Source of the DNA: a virus
Lineage: Duplodnaviria; Heunggongvirae; Uroviricota; Caudoviricetes
Reading direction: 5' to 3' (one strand)
Length of the DNA stretch: 8,739 nucleotides
IMG/VR virus record: IMGVR_UViG_2681813233_000012
Location: 1-8,739 of that record
The position numbers and the translations under genes were made by a program. The notes below the pieces were generated by a model. The model saw only the letters and a program-made list of their open reading frames with translations, was not told the DNA's origin and made no database searches. This document shows, piece after piece, positions 1-8,739 of this stretch; the first letter of the stretch is position 1, and each line of letters starts with the position of its first letter.

Positions 1-39
1 TAAGTTGGAGTCATTACCGACGATGTTGACGGGCAGGAG

Positions 40-1866
40 ATGCCAGGGCCCAACGAAAGCGACAATTTCCCAGTAGAATCTGCGACGGCAAATACCGTAG
101 TAAGTGGTGATTATGCTGGAGGCCAGATAGCGATGAAAATCGTCAAGCAGGCTGAGTTCGACTACTTCATGGGGCTCGTGCTACCGCATTCTGTCACCTT
201 TACAATTAATGTCACCTACAACACTACATCGGGCAGCGTTACAGAAGATGTGCTTTTCTCAGGTACGCTGATTTCTGCTGTAGAGAGTGATGATGGTTCC
301 TTGATAGACCATGTTCAGTGGTACACGTTCACCATGACAGATTTGCAGGGACCGCCAACAGTTCCATCTACTGCCACCATTAACACGACAAAATTCATTC
401 TCAATGATAACGAGGCGCTTGTTGTGGGGCCTTTCTTCTCGCCTGTTGAGTCAACTGAGCTGTGGCTGCATACACAGTCATCACTTGGTGGCGGTAACTG
501 GACGGACTGGACGGTAACAATCTGGAAAATTGACGACGATTACAATCAGATCCCCGGAACTCAGCAGGCCTTCACCTATCATCAGGGAACGCCGCATAAG
601 TCGACCAGCGAAGTGTTTTATCGCACCGATAAAATAATTCCAGCAGGAGGGTTTGGTAAATACGCCATCAACTTCCAGCGTACAAACAACTCCAATGATG
701 CCTCTATCCTGAAGGTCGAAGAGATTCACGCCGTTAATATTCGCAGCAATGTGGTTCACCCGACTGATACGCTTGTTCGTGTGAAGGTCAGGGCGACAGA
801 GAATGCACTGGGTAGCCGTGACCGCAAATACAACGCCATGGTGACTCGCCACACCATCAGTTACAACCTGACGACACAGTCCGTGGATTACACATTACGG
901 CCGTCTCGGTCGTTTGCTGACGCGGTGGCGCATACCTGGCTTGTAATGGGAGGCCAACCAGAAAACAGTATTGATCTGTACGGCCTGTACTCTATCGTGG
1001 AAAGCCTGCCTGATGAGCGGCTGGGCTACTTCGACTACACGTTTGACGATGAGAACGACTCACTTGGTGACAGGGTGCAGGCGATCTGCAATGCAGCATC
1101 CGTCATGGCGTACTGGGATGACGGTGTGCTGACATTCACCCGCGACCAGAAGGTTGATTATCCTGCTGCTGTATTCAACCGGGCCAACATGAAGACAGAC
1201 GAGTACAAAATTACGTACGAAGCCACTCTTCCCGGAGGTTACGACGGCGTTCAGGTCTCCTACGTTCATCCGACTACGAATAACAAGACGTACATCAACT
1301 ACCGCGTTCTGAACGGCGTTATCGTCGAGCAGGAAGCTGAGAACCCAAACAAGCTTGAGATAGTAGGATTCCGTAACGAGTACCAGGCTCGTGAGCGAGC
1401 GTTACGCGAAACAAAGCGGCTTATCTACTCCCGGGTGAAGATGAATGCCAAGGTATTTGAGGACGGGATTATCCAGGTGGGCAGCGTTATCCAGATGCCG
1501 GATATCTACGACAGCAACCAGCAGCAGGGTTACATCACCGGCCGCACTGGGAATAACTTCGATACGAGCGAACCAATCAAGTTTACCGGAACGATGTATG
1601 TTCTGGTTACTGACAGCTTGGGCAATCCAACACTGCGTTATCCGGCAACGGCCCGCAGCGACACGAAATATGGATTTACTGCAGCAATACCCACCATTCA
1701 GCTCAACATATGGAACGGAGACACTGTGCAGCTCCCGTCGCGCTATCTCATAGCGACCGTAGAAGAGTTAGATAGTCAATTATGGACAGTCAACAGCATC
1801 AAACCGAACACTGACAATACGGTATCCCTGATCGTCGCAGAGTACAGCGACTCAGTCTACGGATAG
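40..1866 (+). CDS. Phage virion structural protein, 608 aa (tail-associated or ejection-type protein; family not recognised)
   Basis: Long uninterrupted ORF with ATG at 40 and an in-frame TAA at 1..3 just upstream, so the ORF is complete. AGGAG lies immediately 5' of the ATG. The protein is Thr/Asn/Ser-rich and beta-like, and sits directly upstream of the tailspike gene. Product assignment is by position and composition only. Confidence 0.8.
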   Translation: MPGPNESDNFPVESATANTVVSGDYAGGQIAMKIVKQAEFDYFMGLVLPHSVTFTINVTYNTTSGSVTEDVLFSGTLISAVESDDGSLIDHVQWYTFTMTDLQGPPTVPSTATINTTKFILNDNEALVVGPFFSPVESTELWLHTQSSLGGGNWTDWTVTIWKIDDDYNQIPGTQQAFTYHQGTPHKSTSEVFYRTDKIIPAGGFGKYAINFQRTNNSNDASILKVEEIHAVNIRSNVVHPTDTLVRVKVRATENALGSRDRKYNAMVTRHTISYNLTTQSVDYTLRPSRSFADAVAHTWLVMGGQPENSIDLYGLYSIVESLPDERLGYFDYTFDDENDSLGDRVQAICNAASVMAYWDDGVLTFTRDQKVDYPAAVFNRANMKTDEYKITYEATLPGGYDGVQVSYVHPTTNNKTYINYRVLNGVIVEQEAENPNKLEIVGFRNEYQARERALRETKRLIYSRVKMNAKVFEDGIIQVGSVIQMPDIYDSNQQQGYITGRTGNNFDTSEPIKFTGTMYVLVTDSLGNPTLRYPATARSDTKYGFTAAIPTIQLNIWNGDTVQLPSRYLIATVEELDSQLWTVNSIKPNTDNTVSLIVAEYSDSVYG

Positions 1867-1888
1867 AACCTAATCCGAATATCACAAT

Positions 1889-1911
1889 CCGGCCACTGAG
1901 CCGGTTTTTTT
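1889..1911 (+). terminator. Rho-independent terminator candidate (CCGGC / GCCGG stem, 6-nt loop, T7 tract)
   Basis: CCGGC at 1889..1893 pairs with GCCGG at 1900..1904, followed by TTTTTTT at 1905..1911, 23 nt after the stop of the 40..1866 ORF. Confidence 0.55.
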
Positions 1912-1922
1912 ATGGAAAAATT

Positions 1923-4298
1923 ATGGCCACCCAACCAACAAATAACGCAGTGCCAAGCGAATCACCCCGTGATCTGAAGTTTAACGCGGGGAAAATTGAT
2001 GAGTTCGTTACGTCTGAGAATCATGATTATGTTGACAGATTTGGCAATAAACATCGTACAATTGAAGGCATAAATTACGATTCGAACCAGGCAATTCTGA
2101 ATTATGGCTATATCACGAAGGATTCTTTTGAAGATGGCAGCACCATTAGCCTTGCTAACGAGTGCTTACGCTGGAAGAGCAACGGCGAGTACTACAGATG
2201 GGATGGGTCACTCCCCAAAGTAGTTCCCCCTGGCTCTACTCCGGAAGGCACTGGTGGGCTAGGGAAAGGTAAGTGGGTTGGTGTCGGAGATGCATCTTTG
2301 CGATCGGCAATGAAGAATGAGAATGGTACTGATTTAATTAATGGAACAAAATCTGTTGTTGGGTCAGTTACAAGATCACTAACAGATATGTTGTCAGACA
2401 AGATATCCGTGCGGGATTTTGGCGGAATTGATGACTATGATGGAACAAATGCATCAACATGCACTAACAACAGAATTCCATTTCAACGGTATTTTGAATA
2501 TCTTAATTCAATTGGCGGTGGCGATCTAAATATTCCACGTAAATTAACCGGGAAATATTTTATTAGTGGTGATGACCACACACAAGTTACCTCTAAAGTT
2601 CGTTTAAATACTGACGAAGGTGTATCTATACATCTTGATTTCTCTGGAGGTGCTTCAAATACTCCATTTGCCAATCTCGATTTAAGGGCATCGAGCCAGA
2701 TAAAGATTGAGTATGTTAATTTTGGTTATCCGTCATATGTTGGTGGTAGCGTAGACACGCCATTTAGTGACTCTTTGCAAACCATGAACAATGGTGATGG
2801 TATTTACACGGTGCCAGAAGTACTATCAGGTAGTGATTTTAAAGTCATTTCATTGGGAAATAGCTCTGTTGAAATACCACCGTTATCAACATCCGGAGAT
2901 ACAATCTCTTTTAATGGCGGAGGGGTTCCAACTGCAGCAGTCATCAGCGTGACTCCTGGTGACGAAATTATGGCGTTAATAGGCTCGAATTCGCTTGGGG
3001 GAATTATTGCCGGTGTCGTCACGGTTAATGGCTATGCTTATGTTTCTCAAGATACTTCTAGTGGTAATATTACCCTTGCAGAAGGCACGATAGGGCAGCC
3101 AAATATACTAACTGGTCTTAATTATGCTCTCATGGATCAGCTAAGAGATCGGTTTGACCGTGCTATCATAACAGTAAAAATTACTTCATCGAGAACCTTT
3201 ACCGTTATGGCTAACGGTCTGGCAATATGCAGTCATACCACCAGGTCTAGTATTCTTGGCGCTTGTCTTGGTACTTCCGACATTAATAGTATTGTGAATG
3301 TATCACAAATGTCTCGAGTTAGAGGGCATAGTTTTTCCGGGTCCAAGCCTTTGAGGATATTGGTTTGCGGAGATTCAATTACCGATCAAAATAATCAATA
3401 TTCATGGGCCAAATATCTCCAGATGCAGTTGGGCTCAGCTGGCGTTAACATTGCAGAGATAAATAATTTAGCAGTGGCTGGACAGACAGCGGCCCAACAA
3501 CTCAGCATCCTGAAAACTGTTGGTGTAGGATATGATATCTGCCTGATACAGGTTGGTGTAAATGATGTTCAGTTACAGACTCCGGTAGCATCCTTCATTT
3601 CGACAATAAATGAAATGGTCACTTACGCGAAGGGGATTGGAGCATTTCCGATTGTTGGTGTACCCACGGCTTTTTATTCTCTTGCAGAGGCGAATGCTAA
3701 TGGGCAAACGGGAGGGCAAAACACATCAAACAACTCTTCGATAGGGATGTACCGATCGCTTCTTATTCGTGCTGTTGCAGCAGCTGGCGGAATTGTTAAC
3801 CTTGAGCCTATGAAAGGACATGGAGCTATGACGGCTAAGTGGCTGTCACTGAAACCGTATGCCGTCAGCGATAGCATCGTGCTGGACAATATTCACCCCA
3901 CTCCATATGGGTCGATGCTCCTGGCACAAGGATATGCGCGATGCATTCTTGGATGGCTTACTAGGCCTGACATGACACCAACGGAAAGCTTTGAATTTAT
4001 TCCTAGCGGGTGGCTTAGCCCAGGATTTGGCGAAACATCGATCCCTAAAATTAAAGGAAGGGAGTTCTCTGGGTTGATAAGTCTGCATGCAACAAATATC
4101 AATGATGGTTCAGTGGCCTTCACTTTGCCACCATCATTTAAAGTAGATAACGTTAAGATGCTTGCGGTGACAGGGACAAACAGTTCCGGGCTTCCGGTAG
4201 GTGTTTGTAATTTATATGTTGGGACAGACGGGAAGTGTTACTTCTTTAATATTCCAGAAGGAGTTACCCAAGTATCAATGGACGGTGTGGTTTTATAG
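1923..4298 (+). CDS. Tailspike / tail fibre protein with a C-terminal SGNH-hydrolase (polysaccharide esterase) domain, 791 aa
   Basis: N-terminal ~115 aa adaptor-like region, then a segment typical of the start of pectate-lyase-like beta-helix tailspikes (ISVRDFGGIDDYDG...IPRKLTGKYFISGDD). All SGNH blocks are present in order: GDSIT (Ser485, nt 3375..3377), block II Gly in NLAVAGQT (Gly520), GVNDV (Asn547), DNIH (Asp655/His658, nt 3885..3896). A further ~130-aa C-terminal domain follows. Confidence 0.85.
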   Translation: MATQPTNNAVPSESPRDLKFNAGKIDEFVTSENHDYVDRFGNKHRTIEGINYDSNQAILNYGYITKDSFEDGSTISLANECLRWKSNGEYYRWDGSLPKVVPPGSTPEGTGGLGKGKWVGVGDASLRSAMKNENGTDLINGTKSVVGSVTRSLTDMLSDKISVRDFGGIDDYDGTNASTCTNNRIPFQRYFEYLNSIGGGDLNIPRKLTGKYFISGDDHTQVTSKVRLNTDEGVSIHLDFSGGASNTPFANLDLRASSQIKIEYVNFGYPSYVGGSVDTPFSDSLQTMNNGDGIYTVPEVLSGSDFKVISLGNSSVEIPPLSTSGDTISFNGGGVPTAAVISVTPGDEIMALIGSNSLGGIIAGVVTVNGYAYVSQDTSSGNITLAEGTIGQPNILTGLNYALMDQLRDRFDRAIITVKITSSRTFTVMANGLAICSHTTRSSILGACLGTSDINSIVNVSQMSRVRGHSFSGSKPLRILVCGDSITDQNNQYSWAKYLQMQLGSAGVNIAEINNLAVAGQTAAQQLSILKTVGVGYDICLIQVGVNDVQLQTPVASFISTINEMVTYAKGIGAFPIVGVPTAFYSLAEANANGQTGGQNTSNNSSIGMYRSLLIRAVAAAGGIVNLEPMKGHGAMTAKWLSLKPYAVSDSIVLDNIHPTPYGSMLLAQGYARCILGWLTRPDMTPTESFEFIPSGWLSPGFGETSIPKIKGREFSGLISLHATNINDGSVAFTLPPSFKVDNVKMLAVTGTNSSGLPVGVCNLYVGTDGKCYFFNIPEGVTQVSMDGVVL

Positions 4299-4302
4299 TT
4301 CC

Positions 4303-4326
4303 GTGTGGGAGGTCTCCCTCCCACAC
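4303..4326. terminator. 10-bp GC-rich hairpin between convergent genes (candidate bidirectional terminator)
   Basis: GTGTGGGAGG at 4303..4312 is the exact reverse complement of CCTCCCACAC at 4317..4326, with a 4-nt loop. It lies between the tailspike stop (4298) and the stop of the - strand gene (4333). There is no clean U-tract on either side, so terminator function is inferred. Confidence 0.5.
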
Positions 4327-4332
4327 TCACTA

Positions 4333-5412
4333 TTAATTGTAAGGGGTTTCTCTTTCCATTTCTAAAACTATGGCTCTGAAATTTCTATTAAACTCATAAC
4401 CAGGTTTATTATGTAACTCTGCATTTATGCAGTCTCCTAGAAGAGAACTTCTGATTCTAGCACCATACCCATTGGTATGATAAGCAGAGTCCATAAATAA
4501 TTTTCCTCCAAGATTAGACGCGCTTGGTGCGCAAATAACGTTAATACCAGCAACAGAAAGCAAACCCTTAAGTTTCATTAACGACTGCATGGTTTGTCCA
4601 TTATCAGTGTCAAACCCCGGATTTCGCATCGTAACAGGCCATGTAATAAATAATTTCCCACCTTTATTAGAAACAAAATTATTTATTTCCTTGAGTGTTG
4701 TATATGTATGTTCAGATATTTTAGGAATGTCTGAGTTATATGTAAATGTGCCATTATACACAGAATCGTAAACAGTTTTACCGTCAATAAAAACATTGAT
4801 GTCACCGTTTTTATTTAGACTTTTATAACTGTACCCATTATATTCACCATTGGTAGAGTTAAGATGATTGATGACATCACTCAACGGTGAAACCAGGCCT
4901 TTATCTTCTGCATTAAATCCTTCAACTAACCTTTTGGGGCTAACATTCATCATGAACTTTATACGGTTATAAATGTTGATGCTTGATAGGTAATCCTGGC
5001 CCCACCCCAATATATTATTAACAAACCAATCAGTTGGTGCTTCCGTACGTGTGTAGTACTCATACTCAAGCGGCATTACAACGATATCACCATTTTTAAA
5101 ATGCTTTTTTAATTGATAAAAATGATAGTTTATATCTAGCTCTGCATGCGTTGCAATATTTACAACTGGAAGTGATGTTTTATGGGAAATAATTTCACTA
5201 TTTATAGAAAATAAGCTATTCGACCCGCTAGAGATTATTATTTTTTTCCCATTTATCCTGTCAGCGGCAACGCCTTTAAAATCAATTACGTTCTTTAGCC
5301 ACCACCCACCTACAACCTGCTTTCCTTCCTGCATTTTGAAAGCATAAATAAACGTCCCAGCGGCAAATGCAAGTATTGCTAAGAATATAGAGAAGCTGAA
5401 TTTATAATTCAC
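4333..5412 (-). CDS. Membrane-anchored SGNH/DltD-like (PatB/AlgJ-class) protein, predicted periplasmic partner of the upstream MBOAT acyltransferase, 359 aa
   Basis: GTG start at 5410..5412 preceded by AAGGG 6 nt upstream, 9 bp after the MBOAT stop, suggesting an operon. N-terminal hydrophobic anchor (FSIFLAILAFAAGTFIYAF). Ser-rich motif IISSGSNS (res 59..66) near the N-terminus and DSAYH (Asp308/His312) near the C-terminus, the SGNH-like order of nucleophile then Asp/His. Very AT-rich. Confidence 0.6.
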   Translation of the reverse strand: MNYKFSFSIFLAILAFAAGTFIYAFKMQEGKQVVGGWWLKNVIDFKGVAADRINGKKIIISSGSNSLFSINSEIISHKTSLPVVNIATHAELDINYHFYQLKKHFKNGDIVVMPLEYEYYTRTEAPTDWFVNNILGWGQDYLSSINIYNRIKFMMNVSPKRLVEGFNAEDKGLVSPLSDVINHLNSTNGEYNGYSYKSLNKNGDINVFIDGKTVYDSVYNGTFTYNSDIPKISEHTYTTLKEINNFVSNKGGKLFITWPVTMRNPGFDTDNGQTMQSLMKLKGLLSVAGINVICAPSASNLGGKLFMDSAYHTNGYGARIRSSLLGDCINAELHNKPGYEFNRNFRAIVLEMERETPYN

Positions 5413-5421
5413 TGTTCGCCC

Positions 5422-6267
5422 TTAAAAATTGAAGTAAATAAAGGATCCGGGAGCCGCCCCACCCAAGGAAGCAGTCACTGCAATGCAAACGCCAAAGGCA
5501 CACAGGCATGGAGCAAGCAGATTCCACGCTATACCACTCTTATGTTCTTTGGTCATCTCCATGAAAACATTAGAATTTACATTAATTAAGCACGTCATAA
5601 TGGCAATGGCGCAAACAGCTATCATATAGAAACCACCTTTCGATGCCTCATAGAGGAAAGAGTCCGCAAAAGGTTGAGCATATTTAAATCCGGAAACCAA
5701 AGAATCGTAACCAGCAAACATTTTCTTTAGCAAACTAAAAGCATCATTTAAGTTATCTGTTCTGAAGAAAATCCAGGTGATATTCACGTAATTGAATGTT
5801 ATAAACCAACCTACAACGCTCGGCATGCGAAAGCCATTTTGTGACCAATACCTGTGAATGACAAGCCCAGCCCCGTGTAAAGCGCCCCACGCCAAAAAAT
5901 TCCATCCAGCTCCATGCCAGAAACCGCCGATCAAAAACGTCAAAAACAGGTTTAGATATGTGCGTAATACACCATTTCGGTTTCCGCCAAGAGGAATGTA
6001 GACATAATTCCTGAGCCACGTGGAAAGGGTAATGTGCCAGCGTCTCCAGAAATCTTGAAGGTCTGTTGCTATGTATGGTGAATTGAAGTTGATAGGCAGC
6101 ACAACGCCAAACAGAAGGGCCGAGCCAATCGCCATGTCAGTATATCCGGAGAAATCAAAGTATAACTGGATACTGTATGAGAGGCTGGTTATCCATGCCT
6201 CCAAAGCACCAAGGGCTGAGATATTTGCATAACCTTGATCCGCTATAGAGCCAAAATATGAAGACAA
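5422..6267 (-). CDS. MBOAT-family membrane-bound O-acyltransferase (AlgI/DltB/PatA-like), C-terminal portion; the frame is open upstream to 6357
   Basis: Contains the MBOAT signature region: YFDFSGYTDMAIG, FWRRWHITLSTWLRNYVYIPLGGNR and GGFWHGAGWNFLAWGALHG (conserved His). The ORF-track start at 6267 is a TTG; the same frame stays open to a TAA at 6358..6360. Confidence 0.8.
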   Translation of the reverse strand: MSSYFGSIADQGYANISALGALEAWITSLSYSIQLYFDFSGYTDMAIGSALLFGVVLPINFNSPYIATDLQDFWRRWHITLSTWLRNYVYIPLGGNRNGVLRTYLNLFLTFLIGGFWHGAGWNFLAWGALHGAGLVIHRYWSQNGFRMPSVVGWFITFNYVNITWIFFRTDNLNDAFSLLKKMFAGYDSLVSGFKYAQPFADSFLYEASKGGFYMIAVCAIAIMTCLINVNSNVFMEMTKEHKSGIAWNLLAPCLCAFGVCIAVTASLGGAAPGSFIYFNF

Positions 6268-6334
6268 GACAACTTTTTTGAATATTCCGACACTAAATAT
6301 AAATACTGCGGGAACGAAATATTTCCCGAAATAA

Positions 6335-6859
6335 TTATCCCTTGAGTTGGTTTGTAATTACATCATAATTTGTTATCGGGCCAGAGATGAGCTTAGGGAA
6401 AAACAAAATGTAGCAGCAATAATTTAATATTGAAATGTTAGATATCTGTTTTCTATACAAACTAACTGATAAAGAAATCTGCTGAAATGTATAGAAGCTT
6501 ATGGCTAACGGCGCAATAACATTCATGTGGCCTATATTTAGGTTGAAAATACTAGATATGTTACTTGCAAAGAAGTTGCAGTATTTAAAATAACCAAGAG
6601 ATGCCACGTTAAATATAACTGATAATGCTACATATAATTTTGTCTTTTCAGATTTCATCATTGTTAATATTGCGTAGTTTATCAGCATCGATATCAACAA
6701 AAGAGGCAAGAAATTAAATGTGAAAAAAGTATAGAAATACAGGCTAGCGCAACAAATCCACACCTTGGAGAGAGCAATGTTAAATTTTTTCAGGAAAAGG
6801 AATATCAATACCACCAAAGGTAAAAACATTACAGAATATTCTAACGAGTTAAATAACAT
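6335..6859 (-). CDS. MBOAT-family O-acyltransferase, N-terminal portion (same gene as 5422..6267, separated by a frameshift)
   Basis: ATG at 6857..6859 with AAGG/AGGGA upstream. Typical AlgI/DltB N-terminus: multiple TM helices, ISFYTFQQISL and FFPKLISGPI motifs. Ends at TAA 6335..6337 in a frame offset by one from the C-terminal portion. Confidence 0.8.
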   Translation of the reverse strand: MLFNSLEYSVMFLPLVVLIFLFLKKFNIALSKVWICCASLYFYTFFTFNFLPLLLISMLINYAILTMMKSEKTKLYVALSVIFNVASLGYFKYCNFFASNISSIFNLNIGHMNVIAPLAISFYTFQQISLSVSLYRKQISNISILNYCCYILFFPKLISGPITNYDVITNQLKG

Positions 6860-7110
6860 GCCTTATCCCTTATATAAGTTATCAATCAAGTTTAAACCGC
6901 TATCAGAACACCAAATTCGCTTATCCATTCATGAACCTCTTCCACGCGCAATCTGCAACCACACTTAACATCCATGGTATTAACTTTAATTCCTAAAATT
7001 AGTGACATGGAGTTTACCACTACAGAGAAATCTGATCATTACTTGATCGAAAGAAGGGAACGTGGTGCTGTGCGTATACACAGCAATGGTCGGAGAAGCA
7101 TCTCTGATCC
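6860..7110 (-). promoter_or_regulatory. Putative regulatory region of the MBOAT operon (RBS, weak sigma70-like elements, cluster of three GATC sites)
   Basis: Shine-Dalgarno-like AAGG immediately 5' of the ATG. Candidate -35/-10 (TTTAAA / TATATA on the - strand) has sub-optimal spacing. GATC at 7034..7037, 7045..7048 and 7106..7109. No experimental support. Confidence 0.3.
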
Positions 7111-7405
7111 CATATGCTCGCTCTTTGGTGGTTTGCAGAATGGAAGGCGAGTTGAGGATAAGGCGATATCGTAAATCATCAACTCCTCACCTGGAGGAAT
7201 TGCAGACGGGGAGGCGTAAAAGATACCAGTGCACGATGACGGAACTAGCCCGGATGCGATCTTTGGGATGTTCACCTACATCATCCACGATGTTCGCTCT
7301 GACGAGTTCGACGACTTTCTGGTGATGTGATGGGGCATGGATGAGGAAAACATTATCGAAAACAACCCAAAACAGATGGAGTTGAGAGGTGTCTTGCACC
7401 ATTTC

Positions 7406-8560
7406 TCACAACTTACCATCAAGCCAGTCTGCCCACCACTGCATCATCTCCCTGCGCTTATCCATGTACTGAGCGTGATTGTATATCCCACGAATGGAGC
7501 CGCTGTTAGCGTGCGCCAGTTGCTTCTCTATGGCATCAGCAGGCCACTCGTGCTCATTCATTATTGTGCTGAACTGGTGCCGGAAACCATGTCCACTGGC
7601 GAGGCCCTCGTAGCCTATCTGCCGAATAACCAGCAGAACGGCGTTTTCACTGAGCGGCTTTGTTTTGTCATTGCGCCCGGCGAACACGAAGCTTGATATC
7701 GGCTGCGTTACCGGCCTCAGGGTTTCAAGCAAAGAGACAACTTGATCTGACATTGGGACAAGGTGGGGGCGGCGGCCTTTCATCACCTCTTCGGTGATCG
7801 TAATCGTCCTGGTTTCGAAATCGACGTTCGACCATTGCATAGACCTGAGTTCTTTAGTCCTGAGCACGGTGTACTGCAATACCTGCGTCGCAATCTTCGA
7901 TACGATGCTGCCAGAGAAGCCAGCCAGAGCCTTATTGAATTCCGGTATCTGGTCTGCAGGAAGGAAGGGGTAGTTCTTTTTCCGGTATCCCTTCATGGCA
8001 TCAGCAAGGTCAGGAGCCGGGTTATATTTCGCTCTCCCGGTAACTATCGCGTACCTGAATACTTCCCCGCACCTCCTCCGCGCCTTATTGGCCCGCTCCA
8101 TTGCTCCACGGTCTTCGAACCTGCGGATCACTTCCAGTATCTGCATTGGTTCTATCTCGTTAATCTCCATCCCGCCAATCAACGGCAGAATGTCATCCTG
8201 GAACATGCGTGACAGTTCGGTGCTGTACACTTCTGACCATACCTGTTTTTTGTGCTCGTACCATTCTTGGTATATAGAGCCGAAAGAGTTGTCTTTAACT
8301 GACAGTTTTTTAGCCTTTACAGGATCGACGCCGAGAGACACATCCTTTTTGGCAAGCCAAGCTTTGTCTCTGGCTTCCTGCAATGACATGAGCGGGTATT
8401 TGCCTACCGTCAGAACCTTCTCTTTACCATCGAGCTTGTAACGCAGCTGCCAGACTTTCTTTCCGGTAACCGGAACATAAAGGTACAGTCCGTTGCTGTC
8501 GAGTAGCCGGTACGGTTTATCTTTCGGCTTTGCCGCGTCGATCTGCTTGATGGTGAGCAT
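7406..8560 (-). CDS. intS: Tyrosine integrase, P4/IntS-type (site-specific recombinase with N-terminal arm-binding domain), 384 aa
   Basis: N-terminus MLTIKQIDAAKPKDKPYRLLDSNGLYLYV is typical of P4-family integrases. Catalytic-domain motifs HGFRHQFST (HxxR) and a C-terminal Tyr region (IRGIYNHAQY). It sits next to the 3' end of an argW-type tRNA in the same orientation, as for IntS of the E. coli K-12 CPS-53/KplE1 prophage. The symbol is assigned by this context and recalled similarity, not by a search. Confidence 0.9.
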   Translation of the reverse strand: MLTIKQIDAAKPKDKPYRLLDSNGLYLYVPVTGKKVWQLRYKLDGKEKVLTVGKYPLMSLQEARDKAWLAKKDVSLGVDPVKAKKLSVKDNSFGSIYQEWYEHKKQVWSEVYSTELSRMFQDDILPLIGGMEINEIEPMQILEVIRRFEDRGAMERANKARRRCGEVFRYAIVTGRAKYNPAPDLADAMKGYRKKNYPFLPADQIPEFNKALAGFSGSIVSKIATQVLQYTVLRTKELRSMQWSNVDFETRTITITEEVMKGRRPHLVPMSDQVVSLLETLRPVTQPISSFVFAGRNDKTKPLSENAVLLVIRQIGYEGLASGHGFRHQFSTIMNEHEWPADAIEKQLAHANSGSIRGIYNHAQYMDKRREMMQWWADWLDGKL

Positions 8561-8585
8561 GGGTAAAATTCCGGAGGGTAAAATT
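8561..8585 (+). repeat. Two direct copies of GGGTAAAATT (8561..8570, 8576..8585) abutting the int start codon
   Basis: Exact 10-bp direct repeat separated by 5 bp (CCGGA). On the - strand it reads AATTTTACCC-TCCGG-AATTTTACCC-ATG. Confidence 0.6.
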
Positions 8586-8595
8586 ATTTACTCGT

Positions 8596-8625
8596 TTTTT
8601 ACCCGCCGAAGCATGCGGCTGTCAA
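8596..8625 (-). promoter_or_regulatory. Candidate sigma70 promoter for int (-35 TTGACA, 18-bp spacer, -10 TAAAAA)
   Basis: On the - strand, TTGACA (8620..8625) and TAAAAA (8596..8601) are separated by 18 nt, ~35 nt upstream of the int ATG. Confidence 0.35.
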
Positions 8626-8634
8626 CGTTCTATT

Positions 8635-8714
8635 GCGAACTATGGCGAACTAATATTTTATTGAGAGCTTGCTGTGTAAGGGATTTTGCGAACTACTGCG
8701 GAGAGTGGCGAACT
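8635..8714 (+). repeat. Four direct copies of GCGAACT (8635..8641, 8645..8651, 8688..8694, 8708..8714): candidate integrase arm-type binding sites in the att region
   Basis: Heptamer repeated four times in the same orientation, in two pairs, between the tRNA 3' end and the int promoter. Arm-type sites of P4/lambda-family integrases are short direct repeats in this position. Confidence 0.5.
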
Positions 8715-8720
8715 GTGAAA

Positions 8721-8739
8721 TGGTGTCCCCTGCAGGAAT
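8721..8739 (-). tRNA. argW: 3' end of a tRNA-Arg gene (argW-type, anticodon CCU), partial: only the last 19 nt including CCA are in the window
   Basis: Reverse complement of 8721..8739 is ATTCCTGCAGGGGACACCA, which matches my recollection of the 3' terminus (T-arm, acceptor stem, CCA) of E. coli argW. The gene continues beyond the window end. Confidence 0.6.

What the first reader, a model, noticed from the sequence alone, without database searches (positions are those of the whole stretch)
3354..3920. Complete SGNH-hydrolase domain embedded in the tailspike
All four SGNH blocks occur in the correct order and spacing (Ser485 in GDSIT, Gly520, Asn547 in GVNDV, Asp655/His658 in DNIH). This marks the receptor-binding protein as a probable polysaccharide deacetylase rather than a glycosidase. 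Esterase tailspikes are known, for example phage G7C gp63.1 and Vi-antigen-specific phages, but are the minority. Here the domain is followed by an extra ~130-aa C-terminal domain of unknown role.
Basis: partly seen in the sequence, partly recalled or inferred. Interest (0 to 1): 0.6.

Follow-up and report, generated by a model that had tools for sequence, protein, structure and literature searches.

The report
Acetyl-esterase tailspike of an E. coli prophage
The receptor-binding tail protein of this E. coli prophage carries a complete esterase domain that most likely strips acetyl groups from the host's surface polysaccharide instead of cutting it; this is real, but it is a new example of a type of phage protein that is already known and common in prophages.

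Summary

The most likely function is a trimeric, non-depolymerising O-acetyl esterase acting on O-antigen or capsule, as in G7C gp63.1, Possum gp66, Moo19/B2 and Klebsiella prophage fibres.

NCBI already names an identical protein "GDSL-type esterase/lipase family protein". SGNH receptor-binding proteins are now reported as among the most prevalent in temperate Klebsiella phages, so "minority" is outdated. Verdict: new member of a known kind, low to moderate interest.

The neighbouring MBOAT plus 359-aa acetylation module, frameshifted here, is the more curious feature.

The parts
1923..4298 (+). Complete tailspike / receptor-binding protein gene (791 aa plus stop). It follows the TipJ-family tail-tip gene.
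   Evidence: ORF list. An identical protein, P0001, is named 'GDSL-type esterase/lipase family protein [Escherichia coli]'. PHROG 13362 matches full length, E 4e-105. The same gene order TMP...NlpC/P60-TipJ-tailspike is seen in L003.
1923..2324 (+). Virion-attachment region, residues 1-134. It comprises N-terminal helices (about 15-60) plus the Tail_spike_N (TSP1/Gp66) domain (65-123).
   Evidence: PDB 9occ_G (Sf11 gp13) matches residues 1-134, E 2.2e-47, with R16 and K19 conserved. PF18668 E 1.2e-17. In Sf11 these helices form a trimeric bundle around an adaptor helix of the distal tail protein (PMC12724387).
2370..2792 (+). Middle module, residues about 150-290. It is short, mixed alpha/beta, and begins with DFGG-x-DD...TNN. 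Its role is unknown; it may be a vestigial start of a spike body.
   Evidence: pLDDT 82-90 for residues 165-245. phmmer aligns residues 59-263 with CBA120 TSP3 residues 92-306. No Pfam hit even at E<=10. Y212 is invariant.
2808..3326 (+). All-beta sandwich domain, residues about 296-468, directly preceding the esterase domain. Probably a carbohydrate-binding accessory domain.
   Evidence: Strands 296-468 with pLDDT about 85-93. Foldseek finds two-domain hits to beta-sandwich+SGNH carbohydrate esterases (YxiM 2o14, PbeAcXE 7toh, CE2 2waa, Ape1 8gkd) and to a galectin (3wg3, TMt 0.54-0.57); assigning the galectin hit to this domain is my inference, since the output gives no query coordinates.
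3351..3962 (+). SGNH hydrolase (esterase) domain, residues about 477-680. Block I is GDS 483-485, block II G520, block III GVND 545-548, block V DNIH 655-658. A family-specific insertion at 584-606 carries invariant Y585, G598 and Q599.
3981..4295 (+). C-terminal beta-barrel 'head' domain, residues about 687-791. Probably a trimeric receptor-binding knob.
4303..4326 (.). Perfect GC-rich hairpin between the convergent tailspike and 359-aa genes. Probably a bidirectional terminator.
   Evidence: Sequence GTGTGGGAGG-tctc-CCTCCCACAC. dG -20.8 kcal/mol, z -5.6, 0 of 200 shuffles fold as well.
4333..5412 (-). Context: 359-aa membrane-anchored protein of an unannotated family. Probably the periplasmic SGNH-like partner of the adjacent MBOAT.
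   Evidence: No Pfam, NCBIfam, PHROG or PDB sequence hit. 46 relatives, none with a Pfam domain or an informative name. Invariant G62-S63-N64, D108 and H311. Faint single-member hits to ALGX and DUF1574. It is always next to an MBOAT gene where the context is preserved.
5422..6859 (-). Context: MBOAT-family O-acyltransferase gene, split here into two ORFs (6335-6859 and 5422-6267) by a 5-bp deletion at about 6345-6350.
   Evidence: PF03062 E 1.1e-28. TIGR04091 DltB-like hits on both halves. The frame change and the loss of one CAACT copy relative to L003 and L001 are shown.

Best explanation
The gene encodes the side tailspike of a lambda-like, non-contractile-tailed prophage integrated beside yfdC in E. 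coli (the tRNA-Arg site in a related prophage). Trimers attach to the tail tip through the N-terminal helices and the Tail_spike_N domain. The distal 500 residues form a beta-sandwich / SGNH esterase / head-domain module.

On contact with a host, the head and beta-sandwich domains bind a surface polysaccharide, either O-antigen or capsule. The SGNH site then hydrolyses its O-acetyl esters without cutting the glycan chain: Ser485 is the nucleophile, His658/Asp655 the general base pair, and Gly520 and Asn547 the oxyanion hole. De-O-acetylation serves as the specific, reversible first adsorption step and loosens the polysaccharide layer, so that the tail tip (TipJ) can reach the outer membrane.

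Shown here: the motifs, their conservation, the predicted fold, the domain order, and the tail-gene context. Inferred: trimeric state, catalytic activity, acetyl as the leaving group, and which polysaccharide is the substrate.
For: - Motifs are at the stated positions.
- PF13472 and PF00657 score above their curated cut-offs.
- All catalytic and oxyanion residues are invariant in 26 homologues at 28-83% identity, while the rest of the protein averages 40% column identity.
- A family profile aligns blocks I-III with TesA and other SGNH esterases, and block V with acetyl-xylan esterase 7ddy.
- It also matches two-domain carbohydrate esterases that have a preceding beta-sandwich: CE2, PbeAcXE, Ape1 and YxiM.
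- The N-terminus is homologous to Sf11 gp13 (E 2e-47), CBA120 TSPs and the G7C gp63.1 anchor. The gene follows TipJ in a tail operon.
- The C-terminal domain has a phage receptor-binding head fold.
- Phage proteins with an SGNH domain in the receptor-binding protein have demonstrated esterase or deacetylase activity: G7C gp63.1 and Klebsiella prophage fibres (PMC13123978), Possum gp66, which has the same SGNH-plus-PSA-like-head layout (PMC9569702), Moo19 gp82 and B2 gp48/49 (PMC11654681), and the epsilon15 petal domain (bioRxiv 10.64898/2026.07.31.742079).
- The module is always C-terminal in 600-1100-aa proteins, and there are 318 clusters at 50% identity.
Against: - No assay exists. SGNH enzymes also include lipases, lysophospholipases, thioesterases and acyltransferases, and several top single-domain structural hits are annotated 'lipolytic'.
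- The model is a monomer, and its coordinates could not be inspected, so catalytic-triad geometry was not measured.
- The substrate polysaccharide and the host serotype were not identified.
- The prophage tail in L003 lacks a long Sf11-type distal tail protein, so the exact attachment partner is unknown.
Confidence: 0.8

Rival explanations
1. The SGNH domain is a lipase or phospholipase (GDSL lipase sense). It attacks outer-membrane lipids or lipid A acyl chains to help tail penetration, rather than acting on a polysaccharide.
Against: - The domain sits between a beta-sandwich of the kind seen in carbohydrate esterases (CE2, PbeAcXE, Ape1, YxiM) and a saccharide-type receptor-binding head.
- It lies on a side spike that, in Sf11, stands off the tail tip.
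- Every tested phage receptor-binding protein with an SGNH domain is an acetyl esterase acting on polysaccharide or pNP-acetate.
- The family diverges rapidly (28-83% identity), as expected for serotype-specific glycan recognition and not for a conserved lipid target.
Confidence: 0.07
2. The esterase site is retained, but the domain works mainly as a binding module: a lectin for acetylated sugar with very slow or no turnover. Adsorption would then depend on binding, not on deacetylation.
For: In epsilon15 the petal esterase is slow, and acetyl groups are dispensable for infection. The protein carries two further putative binding domains.
Against: Strict invariance of all five catalytic and oxyanion positions across 26 divergent homologues argues that chemistry, not only shape, is under selection. 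G7C needs deacetylation for infection (as cited).
Confidence: 0.08
3. The enzyme removes an ester other than O-acetyl, or acts on a non-serotype polymer such as colanic acid, enterobacterial common antigen or peptidoglycan O-acetyl groups.
For: The SGNH fold does not specify the acyl group or the acceptor. Ape1 (a peptidoglycan O-acetylesterase) and a sialate esterase are among the structural neighbours.
Against: The rapid divergence and modular exchange of this protein between prophages fit variable O- or K-antigens better than conserved polymers. A side spike cannot reach peptidoglycan before penetration (inference).
Confidence: 0.05

Closest known systems
Pectobacterium phage Possum gp66 (O-polysaccharide-deacetylating tail fibre)
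   Different: Possum is a virulent N4-like podophage, and its fibre has a different N-terminal attachment region. I made no direct sequence comparison with gp66 here. The host and substrate differ.
E. coli phage G7C gp63.1 (PDB 4QNL) and Shigella phages Moo19 gp82 / B2 gp48
   Same: The N-terminal Tail_spike_N anchor is homologous (4qnl E 9.4e-9, 9d84 E 4e-12, 9d80 E 1.8e-12). They have an SGNH esterase in the distal part and are homotrimers with proven esterase activity. Foldseek gives a whole-chain match to 4qnl at E 1.4e-11.
Shigella siphophage Sf11 tailspike gp13 (PDB 9OCC)
   Same: It is the closest solved relative of residues 1-134 (E 2.2e-47), with the contact residues R16 and K19 conserved. 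The gene position after the TipJ/BHUB2 gene is the same. There are six trimers per tail tip in Sf11.
   Different: The Sf11 gp13 body is a P22/Sf6-like beta-helix endoglycosidase, whereas this body is an esterase module. The prophage tail seen in L003 has small lambda-like tip proteins and no 457-aa distal tail protein with an adaptor arm.
SGNH-domain tail fibres of temperate Klebsiella phages (164_08-KL2, 174_38-KL55)
   Same: They are prophage-encoded, lack a beta-helix, carry a C-terminal SGNH-containing module, are active on pNP-acetate and are proposed to deacetylate surface polysaccharide (PMC13123978).
   Different: They target capsule in Klebsiella and often have gp11/gp12-type fibre domains. 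Sequence relatedness to this protein was not tested.
Salmonella phage epsilon15 gp20 petal domain, and CE2 / PbeAcXE-type carbohydrate esterases
   Same: They are two-part esterase units: a beta-barrel or beta-sandwich plus an SGNH alpha/beta domain, with the glycan groove between them. The same structural neighbours appear here (7toh/7tog, 2waa, 2wao).
   Different: In epsilon15 the esterase is an appendage on a beta-helix endorhamnosidase, giving a dual enzyme. Here no glycosidase domain is present.

Membership tests
SGNH/GDSL hydrolase superfamily (Pfam PF13472 / PF00657) | Block I GDS(x) with the nucleophile Ser at the start of the domain, after the first beta-strand | tested here: met
   GDSIT at 483-487 follows strand 477-483. 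G483, D484 and S485 are invariant.
SGNH/GDSL hydrolase superfamily (Pfam PF13472 / PF00657) | Block II Gly and block III GxND Asn (oxyanion hole) | tested here: met
   G520, G545 and N547 are invariant. They align with the corresponding blocks of TesA, 9otv and 3hp4.
SGNH/GDSL hydrolase superfamily (Pfam PF13472 / PF00657) | Block V DxxH (catalytic Asp and His) | tested here: met
   DNIH at 655-658 is invariant. It aligns with the D..H of 7ddy, 9otv, 1yzf and 3hp4.
SGNH/GDSL hydrolase superfamily (Pfam PF13472 / PF00657) | Score above the curated Pfam gathering threshold | tested here: met
   PF13472 scores 49.8 bits against 32.9; PF00657 scores 29.6 bits against 23.6.
SGNH/GDSL hydrolase superfamily (Pfam PF13472 / PF00657) | Three-layer alpha/beta/alpha flavodoxin-like fold | tested here: met
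SGNH/GDSL hydrolase superfamily (Pfam PF13472 / PF00657) | Spatial convergence of Ser, His and Asp into a triad, and esterase activity | not testable with these tools
Deacetylating phage receptor-binding proteins (G7C gp63.1 type) | Virion-attachment N-terminus of the TSP1/Gp66/gp63.1 kind, in a tail-gene context | tested here: met
   PF18668 E 1.2e-17. 4qnl matches residues 58-133, E 9.4e-9. The gene follows TipJ.
Deacetylating phage receptor-binding proteins (G7C gp63.1 type) | Esterase module homologous in sequence to gp63.1 | tested here: not met
Deacetylating phage receptor-binding proteins (G7C gp63.1 type) | Homotrimer that removes O-acetyl groups from the host polysaccharide without depolymerising it | not testable with these tools
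   Inferred from homology of the N-terminus to trimeric Sf11 gp13, from the trimer-forming head fold, and from the absence of any glycosidase domain.
Beta-helix depolymerase tailspikes (P22 / Sf6 / CBA120 TSP bodies) | Long right-handed parallel beta-helix catalytic body | tested here: not met
   There is no Pectate_lyase_3 or beta-helix Pfam hit, even at E<=10 on residues 145-296. The model shows only a short roughly 140-residue module between the anchor and the beta-sandwich. Matches to CBA120 TSPs are confined to the first ~300 residues.
Siphophage receptor-binding head domain (Listeria PSA gp15 / lactococcal p2, TP901-1, bIL170) | C-terminal ~100-residue beta-barrel head fold | tested here: met
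Sf11 gp13-type attachment (tailspike helices bundled with a distal-tail-protein adaptor helix) | Distal tail protein with a long adaptor extension in the same phage | tested here: inconclusive
   The gene lies outside the window. In L003 the proteins between the tape-measure protein and TipJ are 75, 165, 156 and 121 aa, and none resembles the 457-aa Sf11 gp17 in size. No comparison was run.

The most novel reading that the evidence does not exclude
The tailspike esterase and the convergent MBOAT plus 359-aa module are a matched eraser/writer pair for the same acetyl ester on the host O-antigen or capsule. The prophage would write the mark using an MBOAT partnered with a previously undescribed periplasmic protein family; I am not aware of a phage-borne MBOAT-type serotype-conversion system, as the known ones use the acyltransferase-3 family. 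Its virions would read and erase that mark. The writer is broken in different ways in different lysogens (frameshift here; stop codon plus IS1; partner frameshift; IS1 truncation). This would then reflect selection on that mark rather than ordinary prophage decay.
Probability: 0.12. Interest if true: 0.6.

Novelty: new member of a known kind. Interest (0 to 1): 0.3.

Why it matters
The gene adds a clear E. coli siphophage example to the growing evidence that temperate phages often recognise hosts by deacetylating surface polysaccharide rather than cutting it. It also supplies a defined domain map: anchor, short middle module, beta-sandwich, SGNH, receptor-binding head. The catalytic residues to mutate are S485 and H658. 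Practically, such proteins are candidate serotype-specific probes or glycan-editing enzymes. The finding does not change what is known about phage adsorption. The adjacent, repeatedly inactivated MBOAT-type acetylation module is the part that could repay further work.

Tried and rejected
- **Close phage relatives by DNA.** Megablast of the gene against 50,697 phage records found nothing. By protein, only Aeromonas phages phiA014S/L cover at least 80% of the query, at about 29% identity, annotated 'hypothetical'.
- **Direct homology of the esterase domain to G7C gp63.1.** Not detectable by phmmer or by the family profile.
- **Is the downstream acyltransferase specifically coupled to SGNH tailspikes?** An acyltransferase gene or remnant lies directly downstream in 9 of 11 distinct SGNH-tailspike contexts (the four window-type E. 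coli copies counted once). The same slot is also filled behind a glycerophosphodiesterase-type, a beta-helix and an unassigned tailspike in the same prophage family. The pairing is therefore a generic serotype-conversion slot and not evidence of functional coupling.
- **Identifying the 359-aa neighbour.** Pfam, NCBIfam, PHROGs, PDB by sequence and a PDB profile search all gave nothing significant. Only faint ALGX and DUF1574 hints came from single family members.
- **Naming the middle module (150-290).** No family hit.
- **Catalytic-triad distances in the model.** Coordinates are not exposed to the scripting tool.
- **tRNA at the window end.** None found. The attachment site is inferred from related loci.
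- **A first shuffle test.** It timed out and was rerun with a faster script.
Full report
**What is in the window.** The 8.7-kb window is the right end of an enterobacterial siphovirus-type prophage. It contains:
- the C-terminal 608 aa of a TipJ-family tail-tip protein at 40-1866 (+) (NCBIfam NF040662, E 1.6e-147);
- a 791-aa ORF at 1923-4298 (+);
- a 359-aa ORF at 4333-5412 (-);
- an MBOAT acyltransferase gene split into two ORFs, 5422-6267 and 6335-6859 (-);
- a P4-type tyrosine integrase at 7406-8560 (-).

A protein identical to the 791-aa product is on record from E. coli as "GDSL-type esterase/lipase family protein" (P0001). In the chromosome GCA_052766365.1 the gene closes a tail operon: terminator, Ig-like tube protein, tape measure, small tip proteins, NlpC/P60, TipJ, then this gene. 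That prophage lies beside yfdC and mlaA; a related E. coli prophage sits there next to a tRNA-Arg gene.

**Checking the observation.** Translation places GDSIT at 483-487, G520, GVNDV at 545-549 and DNIH at 655-658. Coordinates 3354-3920 are exactly residues 478-666.
- The ordered motif set arises in 44 of 100,000 composition-preserving shuffles.
- Pfam Lipase_GDSL_2 matches 482-663 at E 7.5e-13 (49.8 bits, cut-off 32.9), and Lipase_GDSL also passes its cut-off.
- In an alignment of 26 homologues at 28-83% identity, only 17 columns are invariant. Eight of them are G483, D484, S485, G520, G545, N547, D655 and H658.
- A profile of the domain aligns blocks I-III with P. aeruginosa TesA and other solved SGNH esterases, and block V with acetyl-xylan esterase 7ddy.

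**Structure.** A full-length AlphaFold2 model (pLDDT 77.9) divides as follows:
- helices 15-60;
- a beta domain at 61-125 (Pfam Tail_spike_N);
- a disordered linker at 127-147;
- a short mixed module at about 150-290;
- an all-beta sandwich at 296-468;
- an alpha/beta domain at 477-680;
- a beta domain at 687-791.

**The C-terminal domain.** Modelled alone (pLDDT 87.6), residues 683-791 match receptor-binding head domains:
- more distantly, reovirus sigma1 and adenovirus fibre knobs.

The experimentally proven O-polysaccharide deacetylase gp66 of Pectobacterium phage Possum has the same arrangement, an SGNH region followed by a PSA-like head (PMC9569702).

**Attachment to the virion.** Residues 1-134 match Shigella siphophage Sf11 tailspike gp13 (PDB 9OCC) at E 2.2e-47, and the contact residues R16 and K19 are conserved. 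In Sf11, the N-terminal helices of three gp13 chains bundle around an adaptor helix of the distal tail protein, and six trimers decorate the tail tip (PMC12724387). Residues 58-140 also match the anchors of the CBA120 TSPs, G7C gp63.1 and the Moo19/B2 fibres. The trimeric state here is inferred from these homologies. The prophage in L003 has no long Sf11-type distal tail protein, so the docking partner is unresolved.

**Mechanism.** The best-supported reading is a non-depolymerising O-acetyl esterase that acts as the receptor-binding protein. The head and sandwich domains bind O-antigen or capsule. Ser485/His658/Asp655, with the Gly520/Asn547 oxyanion hole, remove O-acetyl groups. This gives specific, reversible adsorption and access to the outer membrane.

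Support comes from strict conservation of the chemistry in a fast-diverging family, from the carbohydrate-esterase-like domain pair, and from the experimental record for analogous phage proteins:
- G7C gp63.1 and two Klebsiella prophage fibres (PMC13123978);
- Possum gp66;
- Moo19 gp82 and B2 gp48/49 (PMC11654681);
- the epsilon15 petal domain (bioRxiv 10.64898/2026.07.31.742079).

A family-specific insertion between blocks III and V (584-606; Y585, G598 and Q599 invariant) is a candidate substrate loop. Activity, acyl group and substrate are all inferred. Lipase, binding-only and other-ester alternatives cannot be excluded by sequence, but they fit the domain context less well.

The beta-sandwich / SGNH / head module has 318 clusters at 50% identity in 1.84 billion representative proteins: 224 at E<=1e-10 and 42 at E<=1e-30. 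In the 150 hits listed, it lies almost always at the C-terminus of 600-1100-aa proteins. PHROG 13362 covers the whole protein but is labelled "unknown function". The only cultured phages with the module over at least 80% of its length are Aeromonas phages, at about 29% identity.

**Novelty.** SGNH receptor-binding proteins are established. [quoted passage not shown] NCBI's pipeline already labels this protein as a GDSL esterase. This is a new, uncharacterised member of a known kind. What this analysis adds is the domain map, the identity of the C-terminal head domain and the Sf11-type anchor.

**Context and things noticed.**
- An O-acyltransferase gene or its remnant lies immediately downstream of the spike in 9 of 11 distinct SGNH-tailspike contexts, counting the four window-type E. 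coli copies once. It is convergent with the spike wherever strands were read. The types seen are MBOAT plus partner, acyltransferase-3, and an AT3-SGNH fusion.
- The same slot is occupied behind non-SGNH tailspikes of the same prophage family. It is a generic serotype-conversion slot, as is known for other temperate phages (PMC10408124), and not evidence of specific coupling.
- The MBOAT here is frameshifted by loss of one copy of a tandem CAACT.
- Other copies carry different lesions: a stop codon plus IS1 in L003, a partner frameshift in Ewingella, and an IS1 truncation in Citrobacter. The E. coli YZ22MPE6 copy is intact.
- The 359-aa partner belongs to a small unannotated family: 46 relatives, invariant G-S-N, D and H positions, and faint AlgX/DUF1574 hints. 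This is consistent with the MBOAT-SGNH pairs described for other envelope polymers (PMC12148441).

**Verdict.** The finding is ordinary in kind and of low to moderate interest.

Noticed in passing
window 5422-6859 (-), lesion at about 6345-6350: The MBOAT O-acyltransferase gene is split into 174-aa and 281-aa ORFs. One copy of a tandem 5-bp repeat (CAACT) present in related copies is missing, which shifts the frame. It is either a pseudogene or a slippage-prone site. Other copies carry different lesions: a TGG->stop change plus IS1 in L003, a frameshifted partner in Ewingella L007, and an IS1 truncation in Citrobacter L006. The E. coli YZ22MPE6 copy (L001) is an intact 480-codon ORF.
   Followed up: partly
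window 4333-5412 (-): This is a 359-aa protein with an N-terminal hydrophobic stretch that reads like a transmembrane anchor (not run through a predictor). It has no Pfam, NCBIfam, PHROG or PDB sequence match. Only 46 relatives exist among 5.8 billion proteins, none with a Pfam domain or an informative name. G62-S63-N64, D108 and H311 are invariant. It sits next to the MBOAT gene in every copy where that gene is still present. It is probably a new SGNH-like periplasmic partner of an MBOAT polysaccharide O-acetylation pair, and I am not aware of such a pair being described on a phage.
   Followed up: partly
window 4303-4326: A perfect 10-bp GC-rich hairpin (GTGTGGGAGG tctc CCTCCCACAC) fills most of the 34-nt gap between the convergent tailspike and 359-aa genes. 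dG is -20.8 kcal/mol and z is -5.6. It is probably a bidirectional terminator.
   Followed up: yes
window 5424-5431 (boundary); whole window against L003: Window 18-5431 is 99.87% identical to the E. coli prophage in L003, but 5424-8739 is only 89.9% identical, with 32 gaps. The switch falls at the 3' end of the MBOAT gene, exactly where L003 carries an IS1. This marks a recombination boundary inside the conversion module.
   Followed up: partly
window 4250-7000 against the flanks: G+C falls to 0.31-0.41 across the acetylation module and to 0.39-0.47 in the tailspike. It is 0.49-0.54 in TipJ and the integrase. This is consistent with the tailspike and conversion genes being horizontally exchanged cassettes.
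   Followed up: no
L001 (E. coli YZ22MPE6), locus 7183-12774; L013-L016: In YZ22MPE6 the tailspike (5'-truncated by IS1), the partner and the MBOAT survive together at 93% identity as an isolated remnant between fdhD/yiiG and frv, far from any prophage. In the same prophage family the tailspike slot is filled by very different enzymes: a glycerophosphodiester phosphodiesterase-family protein, a beta-helix protein and an unassigned protein. Each is followed by an acyltransferase gene of some kind; in FDAARGOS_1277 this is a GNAT, with a polysaccharide deacetylase gene two genes further on, after an IS1.
   Followed up: partly
window 1889-1914: A short GC hairpin followed by a T7 run (CCGGCcactgaGCCGG TTTTTTT) lies between the TipJ stop and the tailspike start codon at 1923. 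It looks like a terminator, but its fold is weak (dG -8.7, z -1.8). It could attenuate read-through into the tailspike or mark the cassette boundary.
   Followed up: partly
window 6860-7405 and 8561-8739: No convincing gene lies between the MBOAT start and the integrase. Related prophages carry umuD-like or S24 peptidase genes in that position. No tRNA is found in the 179 nt beyond the integrase, although a related prophage abuts a tRNA-Arg gene.
   Followed up: no
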